Assembly: GCA_027031495.1 (NCBI GenBank)
Contig: JALVQA010000006.1
Span: 16,952 to 80,951, forward strand
DNA: 64,000 nt
Direction: 5' to 3'
Origin: Candidatus Moraniibacteriota bacterium
GTDB lineage: Bacteria; Patescibacteriota; Minisyncoccia; Moranbacterales; GCA-2747515
This document shows positions 19,823 to 63,148 of this stretch, piece after piece (positions within the stretch are counted from its first letter, which is position 1; each line of letters begins with the position of its first letter). Made by a program: the position numbers and the translations under genes. The notes beneath the pieces are model-generated. The model had not been told where the DNA came from. It saw nothing but the letters and a program-made list of their open reading frames with translations, and did not search any database.

Positions 19823-19828
19823 CAAAAG

Positions 19829-19860
19829 GCCGCCAGAGTTGTTTCTCTGACGGCTTTTTT
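19829..19860 (+). terminator. Rho-independent terminator
   Basis: GCCGCCAGAG / CTCTGACGGC stem with one mismatch, followed by TTTTTT. Confidence 0.65.
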
Positions 19861-20266
19861 ACAAGGTGTCAATTTCTCTAATTACGGTACATGTCTGTAC
19901 GATGATATCGTACTTTTTGTACCGGTGCCGGTGGTATGCGCACACGATGTGTGCGATGTCCTTTTTCCGGCGGTCTTGTTTTTACGGCAGTTCTGTTTCT
20001 TGTTTTTTCTATGATAAGCAGAAATATAATGAGAAGAAGTGATTGTTTTTGTTTCATGATAACCCCCGTCGTGATGTTGTTGACGTGCATTTTTTTCTCA
20101 TGGTGAATATGAATCTGCGTCTGCGACGTGCGCAAATTGCCTCCGTGAGAGTTTTATATGCGTTCCGTTGCCTGTACCGTTTCCGAAACATAATCTTTTC
20201 CTCCTTTTTTGTAAAAGAAATGGTATACTAAATATAGCAAAAGTGAACTTTTTTGTACAGATAATT

Positions 20267-60446: not shown

Positions 60447-61151
60447 ATGCGAGAAAGGTATATGGACCGACTTCTTACGGAGTTTGATCCGGTTGCGGCG
60501 GGTATGTCGCACAGTATGATCTCCGCACATACGATGTGGGGCTGGATTAAGACAACACTGGTTGTCATTGTTGTCATCCTTATCGGTCTGTTTGTTGCGA
60601 CGACACTGGCAAAACTTGCCGGTACAATTGTACGACGTACAAAGATTGATAAGGCATTTAAGAGTCTTGGCTGGGATGAACAGCTTGAAAAAATTGGCCT
60701 CGCCGTTAAACCGAGCACGGTTATTGCGTGGCTTGTAAAGTGGTTCGTAATCATCGCCGTTTTCTCCGGTGTGGTTAACTATCTCGGCGCGCAACAACTT
60801 GCACGTTTCTTTAATGACATTTTGGCTTATTTGCCGAATGTTGCTATTGCGGTTGTTGTTCTTGTTATCGGTTCTTTGGTGGCGAACTCAGTGCGTACAG
60901 CGGTTGCACGTGTGCTTGAAAACACAAAGGATGTAAAGAATAAAAAGCTTGTTGCGTCGGTGCCGTATTATGCAATTATGACGATCACCGTGCTGACGGC
61001 GCTTGATCATCTCGGTATCGGGGGCAATATGATTGAGATCTTGTTTACCGGCGTTGTTGTAGCGTTTTCTCTTGCACTTGGCTTGGCGTTTGGTCTTGGT
61101 GGCAAGGAACATGCTGCGCGTTTTCTTGATGCGCTCACGCGCAACAAGTAG
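60447..61151 (+). CDS. Hypothetical polytopic membrane protein (conserved-TM-helix repeat type)
   Basis: About 5 TM segments with a repeated helix motif (VIAWLVKWFVIIAVFSGV / AIAVVVLVIGSLVANSV). 234 aa. The true start may be the internal MDRLL. Confidence 0.4.
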   Translation: MRERYMDRLLTEFDPVAAGMSHSMISAHTMWGWIKTTLVVIVVILIGLFVATTLAKLAGTIVRRTKIDKAFKSLGWDEQLEKIGLAVKPSTVIAWLVKWFVIIAVFSGVVNYLGAQQLARFFNDILAYLPNVAIAVVVLVIGSLVANSVRTAVARVLENTKDVKNKKLVASVPYYAIMTITVLTALDHLGIGGNMIEILFTGVVVAFSLALGLAFGLGGKEHAARFLDALTRNK

Positions 61152-61216
61152 AAAAAGCACCCGAAAGCGTGCGAATTAAAAAAATACACGACAATCAGAT
61201 TGGTGATGAAAAGTGC

Positions 61217-61246
61217 AAAACCACCACGAGAGTGGTGGTTTTTTGT
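61217..61246 (+). terminator. Rho-independent terminator
   Basis: AAAACCACCAC / GTGGTGGTTTT with loop GAGA, followed by TTTTTG. Confidence 0.7.
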
Positions 61247-61334
61247 GGATGTTTTGTATAGGAATTATGTTTTGTGCGGGAATTGCCGTAAGAGTACATC
61301 CCTTGTGCAAATGCGAAAAAACAGGGAGAGTCTT

Positions 61335-61363
61335 GCATTATTTGTAAAAATGTGGTATAAATA
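61335..61363 (+). promoter_or_regulatory. Putative sigma-70 promoter for the small-peptide gene
   Basis: TTGCAT, a 17-nt spacer, then TATAAA. An AAGGAGGTG SD lies downstream. Confidence 0.45.
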
Positions 61364-61387
61364 AAGTGGTTCTTTAAGGAGGTGATT

Positions 61388-61567
61388 ATGGATTTTATTA
61401 ACACTCTTTTCTGGGTCCAGGGATGGACTCCACTTACTCTGCTCGGCCTTTTGGCCGTGGCAGAGGCTCTACCGATGCGCTGGACGCGCATCGGTAGGAT
61501 CATCGGGTTGGTCGTGCTTCTGTGCGCGACCAACCTTCTCGGTTTGACAGCCCTATTATTACAATAG
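61388..61567 (+). CDS. 59-aa highly hydrophobic small peptide (two predicted TM or amphipathic helices)
   Basis: MDFINTLFWVQGWTPLTLLGLLAVAEALPMRWTRIGRIIGLVVLLCATNLLGLTALLLQ. Strong SD AGGAGG 7 nt upstream. GC is visibly higher than the surrounding genes. Two tandem terminators follow. Confidence 0.45.
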   Translation: MDFINTLFWVQGWTPLTLLGLLAVAEALPMRWTRIGRIIGLVVLLCATNLLGLTALLLQ

Positions 61568-61624
61568 AGGGCTGTCTGAAAGATTTTTTTGAAGCACGGA
61601 TTGGTGATCTGTGCTTCTTTTTTA
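61546..61624 (+). terminator. Two tandem rho-independent terminators
   Basis: Hairpin 1 is GACAGCCCT / AGGGCTGTC plus a T-run at 61584-61590. Hairpin 2 is GAAGCACgGAT / ATCTGTGCTTC plus TTTTTTAT at 61618-61624. Confidence 0.65.
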
Positions 61625-61679
61625 TGTTTGAGATATGTCTTGTGCGCTGTGTTTTTTGTGCCGTGATATTTGACAAAAA

Positions 61680-61708
61680 AGGTACATCTTGCTAGTATGG
61701 ACACATGA
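61680..61708 (+). promoter_or_regulatory. Putative strong sigma-70 promoter (TTGACA, 17-nt spacer, TAGTAT)
   Basis: Consensus -35 with exact 17-nt spacing. It lies about 170 nt upstream of the next start codon. Confidence 0.5.
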
Positions 61709-61827
61709 AACAAACGACACATACAATGTATATTGTGGTTATGTGGGTGATGCTCCTTAGTGGGCATGGCCGGTTTGTTTCACATTCTGTGTAGAGAGAA
61801 GAAATCTGCACAAAATGAGAAGTGATA

Positions 61828-61852
61828 ATCGGCCAAAGCGCCGATTTTTTTG
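61828..61852 (+). promoter_or_regulatory. Terminator-like hairpin plus U-run inside the 5' leader (candidate attenuator or riboswitch expression platform)
   Basis: ATCGGC caaagc GCCGAT followed by TTTTTTT, ending about 15 nt before the AGGAGG SD of the downstream gene. Confidence 0.4.
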
Positions 61853-61876
61853 TTGTTTAAAAAAGAGGAGGCATTT

Positions 61877-63001
61877 ATGTCTTTTGTTGAAAAGTTTATT
61901 TTTGCCGAAAGTGGTCGCGACGGGGACGTTGTTGAATCAATGTTCACACGCAAGATACCACTTTATGTGCGTCCGATGCTCGTAAGACAAATGCTTAATG
62001 CTGTTCATCAGTGGCAACGATACACGCCCTTGGAGAATAAAACATGGATTGCCAGAGAGCATAATGTGCCATCACTTCTTGTGCGTGTGGATTGTACAAT
62101 AAAGAATCCCATATTGCGCAGTTGTGGCAATGGCGTGATGGTTGATGGTGGTGATGTTTTTATTTACGAAGTTGACGATGCGCCGGCCGGTCAGAAGTTG
62201 ACAATGGTTGTTAATGACCAATTCAGCGAGTTACTTGATTTAATTCAGCAACACTGGCCACCAATGCGTGCGTTTGTATCGGAACGGCGATTTTCCGATA
62301 TTACGCAGTGGCTTGATCCTTATGATGAGAGCTGGGACGGTGTCATTTGGCCATCTATGCGACCGCAAGAAGCGGATAAATATCCGCACATTGTACACAT
62401 GGCGGCACATCCGGTGGTACAAGAGGGGAACAAGAGCTGGATGGTCAAAACCGGTCTTGCATATCGTGTGCACAATTCCCAGAAGCTCCGTGAAGTGCTC
62501 GATGGTCCTTTAGCGTCATCAAGTGTGGTTGTCAAGCCACTAAAGGGTACGCGTTCGTACAAGATCTACCCCTTGTGGAGAAGAGAGATCAGTGGTAGGC
62601 GGCCGAGTGATACAATTATTGATGTGGAAAAATTATACACCGCCGTAGATAATTGCTATGGCGATGAATGGATTGTGCAACAACTTGTTCCGCCTATTGT
62701 ACTGCCGGAGAGCGTTGCTGATAGACTTGATGGTAGGTACAGAAAGTACTGGTATACTCTCCGTATGTATTATGGCTATAATACAATACATGGGGATTAT
62801 ATTCCGTTAGGCGGTGTGTGTAACGGCACAGATTGGCGCCGGCGTGTAATTTCGCACGGTACATCCAGTGCGCTTTTTCTGCCGGCAAAATTGGACAATC
62901 GCCTATACTCGTCAGCGCGTTTTTCTCTGCGGCAATTGTTAAAGAGACATGCCGCACGTATGGAAGAGAAACAAGGGCACAAGGCTCGTTGTACCTCTTA
63001 A
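61877..63001 (+). CDS. Hypothetical protein with weak ATP-grasp-like motifs
   Basis: ATG preceded by AAGAGGAGG. SSSVVVKPLKGTRSYKIY, EWIVQQLVPPIVLP and RKYWYTLRMYYG loosely resemble TTL/RimK-type ATP-grasp elements (VKP..G..G.G; V.QKYI..PLL; D.R.Y.L). GC is higher than the genome background. Confidence 0.35.
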   Translation: MSFVEKFIFAESGRDGDVVESMFTRKIPLYVRPMLVRQMLNAVHQWQRYTPLENKTWIAREHNVPSLLVRVDCTIKNPILRSCGNGVMVDGGDVFIYEVDDAPAGQKLTMVVNDQFSELLDLIQQHWPPMRAFVSERRFSDITQWLDPYDESWDGVIWPSMRPQEADKYPHIVHMAAHPVVQEGNKSWMVKTGLAYRVHNSQKLREVLDGPLASSSVVVKPLKGTRSYKIYPLWRREISGRRPSDTIIDVEKLYTAVDNCYGDEWIVQQLVPPIVLPESVADRLDGRYRKYWYTLRMYYGYNTIHGDYIPLGGVCNGTDWRRRVISHGTSSALFLPAKLDNRLYSSARFSLRQLLKRHAARMEEKQGHKARCTS

Positions 63002-63023
63002 ACTCTTTCTGTGGAATATTCTT

Positions 63024-63060
63024 GAGTCACTGCGTGAAAGCGTCGTGGCTCTTTTTTTAT
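63024..63060 (+). terminator. Rho-independent terminator
   Basis: Imperfect long hairpin GAGTCAC...GTGGCTC followed by TTTTTTT. Confidence 0.5.
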
Positions 63061-63148
63061 TATTTTGCTATCTGTAGATACACATTTTCTCTGCAAATTG
63101 CTTTCAGTGGTGTTTTTTGGTATTGTGAATGGAGAGTAACGAATGTAA

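What the first reader, a model, noticed from the sequence alone, without database searches (positions are those of the whole stretch)
61335..61624. Stand-alone, strongly expressed 59-aa hydrophobic peptide gene insulated by two terminators
The gene has a consensus-like promoter (TTGCAT-17-TATAAA) and a strong SD (AAGGAGGTG). It encodes a 59-aa peptide that is almost entirely hydrophobic, with two helices, a Trp-rich N-terminus, MRWTR in the middle and a single Cys. Two consecutive intrinsic terminators follow. GC is visibly higher than in flanking genes.

These features fit a small membrane toxin, a bacteriocin-like or quorum peptide, or a precursor for the downstream enzyme. They fit a housekeeping gene less well.
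Basis: seen in the sequence. Interest (0 to 1): 0.55.

Follow-up and report, generated by a model that had tools for sequence, protein, structure and literature searches.

The report
Small membrane peptide on hairpin-chain mRNA
An orphan 59-residue, two-helix membrane peptide gene in an uncultivated Patescibacteria genome looks real, but the same 180 bases also form a chain of near-perfect RNA hairpins, so the stretch seems shaped both as protein code and as RNA structure, as in toxin-type or dual-function small RNAs.

Summary
The ORF exists (window 61388..61567, +, 59 aa). It has a 12-nt Shine-Dalgarno (UAAGGAGGUGAU) in a genome that almost never uses one, and a canonical terminator follows.

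The coding sequence is a chain of five different hairpins with 8-13 bp stems, plus the terminator hairpin. It is the most structured 260 nt of the 64 kb (z = -10.5).

Two tests separate the signals:
- Permuting synonymous codons with the peptide kept loses about 30 kcal/mol (z = -6.7, 0/1000). The RNA fold therefore goes beyond what coding requires.
- Shuffling base pairs with the hairpins kept gives an open and equally hydrophobic frame in only about 2 in 10,000 trials. The peptide frame therefore goes beyond what the fold requires.

The 190-aa minus-strand ORF that public gene callers annotate here is most likely a palindrome shadow.

No homologue of the peptide exists in any collection searched. 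The cassette (peptide plus an orphan 374-aa gene) is absent from the one syntenic relative.

Best reading: a translated small membrane peptide whose synthesis is gated by mRNA structure, like a type I toxin. No antitoxin RNA was found, and membership in that family is not shown. The bacteriocin, quorum-peptide and enzyme-precursor readings are not supported.

The parts
61249..61284 (.). Tandem 18-nt direct repeat (ATGTTTTGTATAGGAATT / ATGTTTTGTGCGGGAATT) about 50-85 nt upstream of the -35. Possible regulator binding site (inferred).
   Evidence: D1, 83% identity, spacing 18
61333..61361 (+). Promoter-like site: TTGCAT, 17 nt, TATAAA with TG at 61353-61354 (extended -10). Matches 8/12 positions, below the scanner's threshold.
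   Evidence: Read; not listed
61375..61386 (+). 12-nt Shine-Dalgarno UAAGGAGGUGAU, ending 1 nt before the ATG.
   Evidence: only 5 of 38 gene starts in the window have any SD core; GGAGG-spacer-ATG opens an ORF of 59 codons or more at only 3 sites
61376..61409 (+). Predicted weak stem pairing the SD (AAGGAGGU) with codons 5-7 (ACaCUCUUU), start codon in the loop. About -4 kcal/mol.
61388..61567 (+). 59-codon ORF for a two-segment hydrophobic peptide. Hydrophobic stretches at about 14-30 and 37-59, with the Arg-rich loop MRWTRIGR between them.
61412..61432 (+). Hairpin H1, 8 bp, -10.0 kcal/mol.
61437..61465 (+). Hairpin H2, 12 bp with one bulge, -20.8 kcal/mol.
61469..61497 (+). Hairpin H3, perfect 12 bp stem with 5-nt loop, -21.8 kcal/mol. 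Encodes LPMRWTRIGR.
   Evidence: (I1)
61505..61536 (+). Hairpin H4, 13 bp including two G.U pairs. -24.4 kcal/mol on + against -19.7 on -.
   Evidence: (I3)
61546..61576 (+). Hairpin H5, 13 bp, -16.0 kcal/mol. The stop codon 61565-61567 lies in its apical part. A T7 run (61584-61590) follows 7 nt after the stem.
   Evidence: (I8)
61591..61623 (+). Canonical intrinsic terminator H6: 12-bp stem with two G.U pairs, 3-nt loop, T6 tail.
61195..61767 (-). 190-aa minus-strand ORF that public gene callers annotate (175 or 190 aa). Judged a spurious shadow of the palindromes.
   Evidence: gene calls; coding model -32 bits; its only homologue is itself; no Pfam hit

Best explanation
Supported by the tests here: window 61388..61567 (+) is a translated, monocistronic, lineage-specific gene for a 59-residue membrane peptide with two hydrophobic helices and a short Arg-rich loop. 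By the positive-inside rule (inference), the loop faces the cytoplasm and both ends face outward. Its roughly 250-nt mRNA is independently constrained to fold into five consecutive local hairpins plus a terminator hairpin.

Inferred mechanism:
- The very long SD recruits ribosomes in a genome that otherwise initiates without an SD.
- The SD-occluding stem and the four stable hairpins inside the CDS throttle and time translation, and they stabilise the transcript.
- Production of a membrane-active peptide is therefore set at the level of mRNA folding, as in membrane-associated type I toxin mRNAs.
- The peptide would act by inserting into the cell's own membrane.

This says it works like a type I toxin. 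It does not say it is a member of a known toxin family.
For: Coding:
- The ORF frame is the best of six under a codon model trained on 29 genes of the window (+9.7 bits; P about 0.01 against all shuffles, 0.05 against stop-free ones).
- GRAVY is 1.18 against 0.25 +/- 0.28 in stop-free dinucleotide shuffles (0/3625). The other five frames are not hydrophobic.
- With the hairpins kept and base pairs shuffled, 15.7% of trials are stop-free, and only 0.15% of those are as hydrophobic.
- In H3-H5 the stems pair codon position 3 with 3 and position 1 with 2. Pairs of position 2 with 2 are almost absent.
- A 12-nt SD plus ATG occurs in a window where 5 of 38 starts have any SD core.
- AF2 predicts three helices at pLDDT 71.

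RNA structure:
- MFE is -124.9 against -75.4 +/- 4.7 kcal/mol, z = -10.5.
- It ranks first of 3188 windows of 260 nt on both strands.
- Permuting synonymous codons among identical residues gives -55.9 +/- 4.4 against the native -85.3, z = -6.7, 0/1000. Control membrane genes give z from -1.7 to +1.0.
- G.U pairs make the + strand 18 kcal/mol more stable than the - strand.

Stand-alone unit: an upstream gene terminator, a promoter-like site and a canonical terminator bound it.

Type I toxin traits per PMC8309996: under 60 aa, hydrophobic helix, and cis mRNA elements that sequester the RBS.
Against: - There are no homologues anywhere, so no conservation, dN/dS or covariation test is possible.
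- The codon score lies at the 4th percentile of real 59-codon gene chunks.
- No antitoxin RNA is evident. The only candidate is a 9/12 promoter-like site on the minus strand (61419..61392), and the scan's total of five sites was not clearly above the 3.4 expected.
- No repeat or complementary partner exists in the window.
- The predicted SD stem is weak, at -4 kcal/mol.
- The peptide has two hydrophobic segments and no cationic C-terminal tail, unlike typical type I toxins.
- Perfect palindromes could also arise from a non-adaptive mutational process such as template switching (own knowledge). That would weaken the 'selected' reading of the fold.
- There are no expression data.
Confidence: 0.5

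Rival explanations
1. A benign small membrane protein, for example an accessory or regulatory subunit of a membrane complex. The hairpins serve only to make a very stable mRNA or are mutational by-products. No toxin-like gating is involved.
For: The coding evidence is the same as for the best explanation. No antitoxin was found. A two-helix hairpin with no cationic tail is not the usual toxin shape.
Against: Accessory subunits are normally co-transcribed with their partner (own knowledge). This gene is monocistronic between terminators, is an orphan, and is absent from the syntenic relative L003. The synonymous-site signal, z = -6.7, is far beyond that of ordinary membrane genes in this genome.
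Confidence: 0.25
2. A non-coding structured small RNA of about 250 nt with five hairpins plus a terminator. The ORF and SD are fortuitous.
For: The structure is extreme. The ORF length alone is not significant, since 16-18% of shuffles are open. There is no protein homologue. The palindromes also explain why the minus strand carries a long ORF.
Against: The joint chance of an open and equally hydrophobic frame, given the same hairpins, is about 2e-4. A 12-nt SD followed 1 nt later by an ATG that opens exactly this frame occurs in an almost SD-less genome. The coding frame is the best of six. There is no Rfam match; within the transcript the best scores are rhtB (minus strand) at 25.6 bits against a gathering score of 55 and Plasmid_RNAIII at 17.7 bits against 60.
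Confidence: 0.12
3. A dual-function RNA. The transcript both encodes the peptide and acts as a regulatory or scaffold RNA through its hairpins, in the manner of RNAIII/delta-haemolysin or SgrS/SgrT.
For: Both constraints are measured on the same 180 nt. The class is established (PMC12612679 and PMC12310071).
Against: No target complementarity to neighbouring 5' regions rises above shuffled controls (a crude duplex test). No repeat or complementary site exists elsewhere in the window. The hairpin loops carry no recognisable seed, and without homologues none can be shown to be conserved.
Confidence: 0.1
4. Precursor (RiPP-like) or carrier peptide modified by the downstream 374-aa protein.
For: The two genes are adjacent. 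Both carry strong SDs, and both are absent from L003. The downstream protein has a faint ATP-grasp YheC/D hit (E = 0.22).
Against: The two are separated by H5/T7, a canonical terminator, a 10/12 promoter and an attenuator-like leader. The peptide is membrane-like, with 1 Asp, 1 Glu and 0 Lys. The only homologue, P0002, has an M20 peptidase 113 nt upstream and no peptide gene. The ATP-grasp assignment is below threshold, and the AF2 model failed at pLDDT 34.
Confidence: 0.02
5. The real gene is the 190-aa (or 175-aa) minus-strand ORF 61195..61767, as in the public annotation.
For: It is called by the gene finders in two assemblies. A 190-codon open frame is long for sequence with about 40% GC.
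Against: The coding model disfavours its frame by 32 bits, and all three thirds score negative. It has no SD. It runs antisense through three + strand terminator hairpins. It has no homologue but itself and no Pfam, PHROG or PADLOC family. Its openness follows from the palindromes and from shadowing a + strand gene. All neighbouring genes are on the + strand.
Confidence: 0.01

Closest known systems
[quoted passage not shown]
   Same: Peptide under 60 aa, strongly hydrophobic and helical. Stand-alone monocistronic locus in an intergenic position with narrow taxonomic distribution. Unusually structured mRNA with a predicted stem that occludes the SD.
   Different: No antitoxin RNA was identified. 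There are two hydrophobic segments with the cationic residues in the central loop and none at the C-terminus. There is no sequence match to any toxin family in Pfam or NCBIfam. The structure is a chain of local perfect hairpins inside the CDS, and the 5'-3' closing stem is only 5 bp. According to the 2021 review, the class had been described only in Proteobacteria and Firmicutes.
Dual-function small RNAs (RNAIII/hld, SgrS/SgrT, SR1/SR1P; PMC12612679, PMC12310071)
   Same: A short, multi-hairpin transcript with its own promoter and terminator that also carries a small ORF. In RNAIII the ORF encodes a hydrophobic or amphipathic peptide.
   Different: In the well-known examples such as SgrS/SgrT the ORF and the regulatory part occupy largely different parts of the RNA (own knowledge). 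Here the hairpins are the CDS. No base-pairing target was found, and there is no homology.
De novo membrane peptides from thymine-rich sequence (PMC7005711)
   Same: An orphan ORF with T at 47% of second codon positions, giving transmembrane-like segments. There is no detectable ancestry.
   Different: That work is in yeast. This ORF has a 12-nt SD, and its hydrophobicity far exceeds what its own composition yields. It looks selected or imported, not merely emergent.
Class II holins and pinholins (two transmembrane segments; own knowledge)
   Same: Small size and two hydrophobic helices.
   Different: There is no charged C-terminal tail, no adjacent endolysin or phage genes, and no PHROG hit.

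Membership tests
Membrane-associated type I toxin (features from PMC8309996) | [quoted passage not shown] | tested here: met
   59 aa, GRAVY 1.18. AF2 helices at 15-26 and 34-58. Two hydrophobic segments instead of the usual one.
Membrane-associated type I toxin | Cationic residues generally located in the C-terminal domain | tested here: not met
   The C-terminus is ...GLTALLLQ. All three Arg lie in the central loop at residues 31-37.
Membrane-associated type I toxin | A cis- or trans-encoded antisense RNA antitoxin | tested here: inconclusive
   The only candidate is a 9/12 promoter-like site on the minus strand at 61419..61392. It would give an RNA starting with AUCACCUCCUUA and ending at the bidirectional hairpin 61217-61242. 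The scan found five promoter-like sites in the region against 3.4 expected, so the match is weak. No complementary sequence lies elsewhere in the window.
Membrane-associated type I toxin | cis mRNA elements that sequester the ribosome binding site | tested here: inconclusive
   The MFE structure pairs AAGGAGGU with 61401-61409, but that stem is only about -4 kcal/mol.
Membrane-associated type I toxin | Toxicity or membrane depolarisation on overexpression | not testable with these tools
   Needs an expression experiment.
Known toxin or small-protein sequence families (Pfam, NCBIfam, PHROGs, PADLOC) | Significant profile match | tested here: not met
   No families at E <= 1 in any of the four libraries.
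RiPP precursor of an ATP-grasp enzyme (graspetide-like) | Core peptide rich in Thr/Ser plus Asp/Glu/Lys for side-chain cross-links (own knowledge of the family) | tested here: not met
   Composition is 1 Asp, 1 Glu, 0 Lys, 16 Leu.
RiPP precursor of an ATP-grasp enzyme | Co-transcription and conserved co-occurrence with the modifying enzyme | tested here: not met
   A terminator, a separate promoter and a leader lie between the two genes. The P0002 locus lacks any such peptide.
RiPP precursor of an ATP-grasp enzyme | The neighbouring enzyme is an ATP-grasp ligase | tested here: inconclusive
   Pfam ATPgrasp_YheCD scores E = 0.22, 11.2 bits against a cut-off of 26.8. No PDB sequence hit. The AF2 model has pLDDT 34 and is unusable.
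Described structured RNA family (Rfam 15) | Covariance-model match at the gathering score | tested here: not met
   No matches in the window at gathering thresholds. Within the transcript only chance-level hits appear at E <= 10, the best being rhtB (minus strand) at 25.6 bits against 55 and Plasmid_RNAIII at 17.7 bits against 60. No tRNA or tmRNA.
Class II / leaderless bacteriocin | Cationic amphipathic mature peptide or double-glycine leader, with immunity and export genes nearby (own knowledge) | tested here: not met
   Net charge is about +1, the peptide is uniformly hydrophobic and has no GG leader. The neighbours are a mechanosensitive-channel-like gene and an orphan 374-aa gene.

The most novel reading that the evidence does not exclude
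This would be the first example in Patescibacteria (CPR) of an RNA-gated membrane-toxin or dual-function RNA locus. Its architecture has not been described to my knowledge: the whole coding sequence doubles as a chain of perfect hairpins, with codon position 3 paired to position 3. The RNA fold and the peptide would then be co-encoded base for base. A putative anti-SD antisense RNA from the opposite strand could act as the antitoxin.
Probability: 0.2. Interest if true: 0.7.

Novelty: new variant of a known kind. Interest (0 to 1): 0.45.

Why it matters
If the dual constraint is real, this is a compact natural case of one sequence optimised both as a transmembrane peptide code and as a multi-hairpin RNA. 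It is useful for three questions:
- How synonymous sites are used to gate translation of membrane-active peptides.
- Whether type I-toxin-like or dual-function RNAs exist in CPR bacteria. A 2021 review lists membrane type I toxins only in Proteobacteria and Firmicutes.
- How such loci are annotated. Standard gene callers replaced this one with a spurious 175-190-aa antisense ORF, so loci of this kind are hidden from protein databases.

Its weight is limited because it is a single orphan locus with no relatives and no expression data.

Tried and rejected
- Homologue searches for the peptide found nothing:
  - 5.8 G clustered proteins.
  - 1.84 G representatives. The single hit, P0003, is a 946-aa repeat protein whose nine weak repeats add up, so it is an artefact.
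  - Exact look-ups of the 59-aa and 61-aa forms.
  - Back-translated scans of metagenome and viral contigs.
  - tblastn against 81 fetched Patescibacteria loci (best E = 0.19), against phages and plasmids, and against the window itself.
- The minus-strand ORF was used as a proxy query and found only itself.
- Pfam, NCBIfam, PHROGs and PADLOC gave nothing for the peptide.
- Rfam, ARAGORN and DNA searches:
  - Rfam and ARAGORN gave nothing credible.
  - blastn of the region against phages gave nothing.
- The two other assemblies of the locus are 100% identical (L084) or differ by one SNP outside the gene (L001). No population variation is usable.
- p374 searches all failed:
  - The structure model has pLDDT 34, so no fold search was run.
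  - The PDB profile search gave nothing.
  - Phage and plasmid tblastn gave nothing.
  - A second metagenome scan with the two-sequence alignment gave nothing.
- The search for repeats of the hairpins elsewhere in the window found none, so this is not a REP/MITE family here.
- The crude RNA-RNA duplex test of the transcript against neighbouring 5' regions gave no signal (z from -1.2 to +1.0).
- The codon scoring and the -10 distance entry for the 29-aa leader ORF used coordinates two bases off and should be ignored. The correct ORF is 61705..61794.

Full report
**What is at the coordinates**

The + strand carries an ORF from ATG 61388 to TAG 61565-61567. It encodes 59 aa: MDFINTLFWVQGWTPLTLLGLLAVAEALPMRWTRIGRIIGLVVLLCATNLLGLTALLLQ.

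Signals around the ORF, as read from the sequence:
- The purine tract before it is UAAGGAGGUGAU (61375-61386), 12 nt complementary to the canonical 16S 3' tail (my own knowledge of that tail). It ends 1 nt before the ATG.
It matches only 8 of 12 positions and was not listed by the consensus scan.
- Downstream lies a hairpin at 61546-61576 with the stop codon in its apical part and a T7 run 7 nt after the stem.
- A canonical terminator follows at 61591-61617 plus T6. Only this one was listed by the scan.

GC is 0.52-0.54 against 0.35-0.49 in the flanks. The excess is in codon position 3, where GC3 is 0.61 against 0.42-0.47 in neighbouring genes. 'Consensus-like promoter', 'two terminators' and 'strongly expressed' are overstated.

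**Organism and context**

The neighbours are ClpB, a small mechanosensitive-channel-like protein (msc, 60447-61151), an orphan 374-aa protein (p374, 61877-63001) and a DUF5656-like membrane protein (p258). The closest relatives of the msc gene are Patescibacteria MAGs: L002 at 62% identity and L003, labelled 'Moraniibacteriota', at 55%.

The same locus occurs in two other public assemblies. One is 100% identical. The other differs by a single SNP at 61846, outside the gene. The sequence is therefore real, but it offers no variation to analyse.

In L003 the msc gene is followed, after about 150 bp, directly by the p258 homologue at 70% identity. The peptide gene, a leader-like unit and p374 (about 61152-63147) are thus present here and absent there.

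This genome hardly uses Shine-Dalgarno sequences:
- Only 5 of 38 gene starts in the window have any SD core.
- GGAGG-spacer-ATG opens an ORF of 59 codons or more at only three sites: 2357, the peptide, and p374.
- About half the starts have a -10-like hexamer 4-12 nt upstream, against 21% of random positions. This suggests frequent leaderless mRNAs.

Folding 61366-61625 gives -124.9 kcal/mol against -75.4 +/- 4.7 for dinucleotide shuffles, z = -10.5. The coding sequence is a chain of different, local, near-perfect hairpins:

| Hairpin | Coordinates | Stem |
|---|---|---|
| H1 | 61412-61432 | 8 bp |
| H2 | 61437-61465 | 12 bp |
| H3 | 61469-61497 | perfect 12 bp |
| H4 | 61505-61536 | 13 bp |
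| H5 | 61546-61576 | 13 bp |
| H6 (terminator) | 61591-61617 | 12 bp |

- Rank: in a scan of all 260-nt windows on both strands, this stretch ranks first of 3188, with a residual of -55 kcal/mol after correction for GC. The next unrelated locus has -34.
- Strand: G.U pairs make the + strand fold 18 kcal/mol more stable than the minus strand. Together with the orientation of the promoter-like site and terminator, this points to an RNA structure, not a DNA one.
- Known families: none of this matches Rfam, a tRNA or a tmRNA.
- Copies: the hairpins are not repeated elsewhere in the window.

**Is the ORF just a by-product of the palindromes, or the hairpins a by-product of coding?**

I tested each signal with the other held fixed.

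*Peptide fixed.* I kept the peptide and the exact set of codons and permuted synonymous codons among identical residues. The CDS energy rose from -85.3 to -55.9 +/- 4.4 kcal/mol (z = -6.7, 0 of 1000). Drawing codons from genome usage gave z = -7.8. Control membrane genes from the same window gave z from -1.7 to +1.0. The fold therefore depends on the specific synonymous choices and is not a consequence of encoding this peptide.

*Hairpins fixed.* I kept every base pair and shuffled pairs among stem positions and unpaired bases among loops. Of these trials 15.7% were stop-free, and only 0.15% of the stop-free ones reached the observed hydrophobicity. The joint chance is about 2e-4.

Other coding evidence:
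- With dinucleotide shuffles, 0 of 3625 stop-free sequences reached GRAVY 1.18. The other five frames are not hydrophobic.
- The ORF frame is the best of six under a codon model trained on 29 genes of the window (+9.7 bits; P about 0.01, or 0.05 among open shuffles). It sits only at the 4th percentile of real 59-codon chunks.
- In H3, H4 and H5 the stems pair codon position 3 with position 3, and position 1 with position 2. Pairs of position 2 with 2, which would force hydrophobic codons opposite hydrophilic ones, are almost absent.

Taken together with the 12-nt SD and its ATG, I conclude that both constraints are real: a translated ORF on an RNA whose fold goes beyond coding needs.

**The minus-strand ORF**

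Public gene callers annotate a 175-aa or 190-aa ORF on the minus strand (61195..61767) and omit the peptide. This also explains why the peptide is absent from the protein collections.

That frame is disfavoured by the coding model, at -32 bits with all three thirds negative. It has no SD. It runs antisense through three + strand terminator hairpins. Its only homologue is itself, and it matches no family. Its openness follows from the palindromes. For example, H3 encodes almost the same decapeptide on both strands. I regard it as spurious.

**The peptide**

GRAVY is 1.18, with hydrophobic stretches at about 14-30 and 37-59 separated by MRWTRIGR. AF2 without an alignment predicts helices at 2-11, 15-26 and 34-58 at pLDDT 71. 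By the positive-inside rule (inference), the Arg-rich loop is cytoplasmic and both termini face outward.

No homologue or family was found by any route.

**Relation to the downstream gene**

Several elements lie between the peptide gene and p374:
- H5 with its T7 run, and the canonical terminator.
- A 10/12 TG-extended promoter (61670-61698).
- A leader whose long hairpin (61768-61834) is mutually exclusive with a terminator (61827-61846 plus a T run) placed just before the p374 SD.

p374 has only one distant homologue, P0002, at 32% identity. That locus has an M20 peptidase 113 nt upstream and no peptide gene. The ATP-grasp hint for p374 is below threshold (E = 0.22), and the AF2 model failed (pLDDT 34). 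The peptide has one Asp, one Glu and no Lys. A precursor-enzyme relationship is therefore not supported.

**Mechanism**

Supported by the tests above: a stand-alone small ORF that codes for a two-helix hydrophobic peptide, on a transcript with five stable hairpins and a terminator.

Inferred:
- The long SD recruits ribosomes in an otherwise SD-poor system.
- A weak stem pairs the SD with codons 5-7 (about -4 kcal/mol).
- The hairpins inside the CDS limit and time translation and stabilise the RNA.
- Output of a membrane-active peptide is thus set by mRNA folding.

This is how membrane-associated type I toxin mRNAs work (PMC8309996; PMC6733600, listed).

Membership in that family is not established:
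- No antitoxin RNA was found. The only lead is a chance-level promoter-like site on the minus strand. Its RNA would begin with the anti-SD sequence and end at the bidirectional hairpin 61217-61242.
- The C-terminus is not cationic.
- There are two hydrophobic segments.
- No family profile matches.

**Rivals**
- A benign small membrane protein whose hairpins only stabilise the mRNA.
- A dual-function RNA (PMC12612679, PMC12310071). A crude test found no base-pairing target.
- A purely non-coding RNA, disfavoured.
- A non-adaptive origin of the palindromes, for example template switching (own knowledge), cannot be excluded.

**Verdict**

It is also a single orphan locus with no relatives and no expression data. 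I rate it a new variant of a known kind (a structured mRNA for a small hydrophobic peptide), with interest 0.45.

Noticed in passing
window 61670-61852 (+): Second small unit between the peptide gene and p374. It has a TTGACA-17-TAGTAT promoter (10/12, TG-extended) and an ATG only 6 nt after the -10, which suggests a leaderless 29-aa ORF at 61705..61794 (MKQTTHTMYIVVMWVMLLSGHGRFVSHSV). A long hairpin (61768-61834) is mutually exclusive with a terminator (61827-61846 plus a T run) that sits just before the p374 SD. It looks like a leader-peptide attenuator or riboswitch-like leader for p374. The only SNP between assemblies (T61846C) lies in that T run.
   Followed up: partly
window 61877-63001 (+): p374 is a near-orphan 374-aa protein with a strong SD. 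It has only one distant homologue in 5.8 G proteins (P0002, 32% identity, next to an M20 peptidase). There is a faint sub-threshold ATP-grasp YheC/D similarity (E = 0.22), and my own reading sees motifs such as VVKPLKGTRS and WIVQQ. The AF2 model failed at pLDDT 34.
   Followed up: partly
window 61152-63147 versus L003 6697-6846: The peptide gene, the leader unit and p374 are absent from the syntenic position in the Moraniibacteriota-like relative L003. There the msc gene is followed directly by the DUF5656-like gene. This is an insertion here or a deletion there. No repeats or mobile-element genes were seen at the borders.
   Followed up: partly
window 19825-20215 (-): This is the second most structured locus of the window (z about -4.9 on either strand). 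The minus strand carries an SD (AAAGGAGGAAAAGATT-ATG at 20191) with a 45-aa Arg-rich ORF. An ORF follows whose internal ATG at 20057 gives a 59-aa product, MKQKQSLLLIIFLLIIEKTRNRT..., with one hydrophobic helix and a long basic tail, a type-I-toxin-like shape. There are hairpins in its 3' part and a bidirectional terminator at 19829-19854. No Pfam hit.
   Followed up: partly
whole window (38 gene starts): The genome is almost SD-less: 5 of 38 starts have any SD core. Eighteen of 38 starts have a -10-like hexamer 4-12 nt upstream, against 21% of random positions. This suggests widespread leaderless initiation.
   Followed up: partly
window 61249-61284: Tandem 18-nt direct repeat (ATGTTTTGTATAGGAATT / ATGTTTTGTGCGGGAATT) just upstream of the peptide gene's weak -35. 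It may be an activator or repressor site.
   Followed up: no
window 61195-61767 (-); L001 5671-6198; L084 9319-9891: Public assemblies annotate a 175-aa or 190-aa hypothetical protein on the minus strand across this intergenic region. By codon model, signals and lack of homologues it is most likely a mis-call that hides the small + strand gene.
   Followed up: yes
window 61217-61242: The terminator of the msc gene (AAAACCACCAC-GAGA-GTGGTGGTTTT) is flanked by an A run and a T run and could act bidirectionally. L003 has a hairpin-plus-T-run of similar form at the corresponding position after its msc gene (by eye).
   Followed up: no
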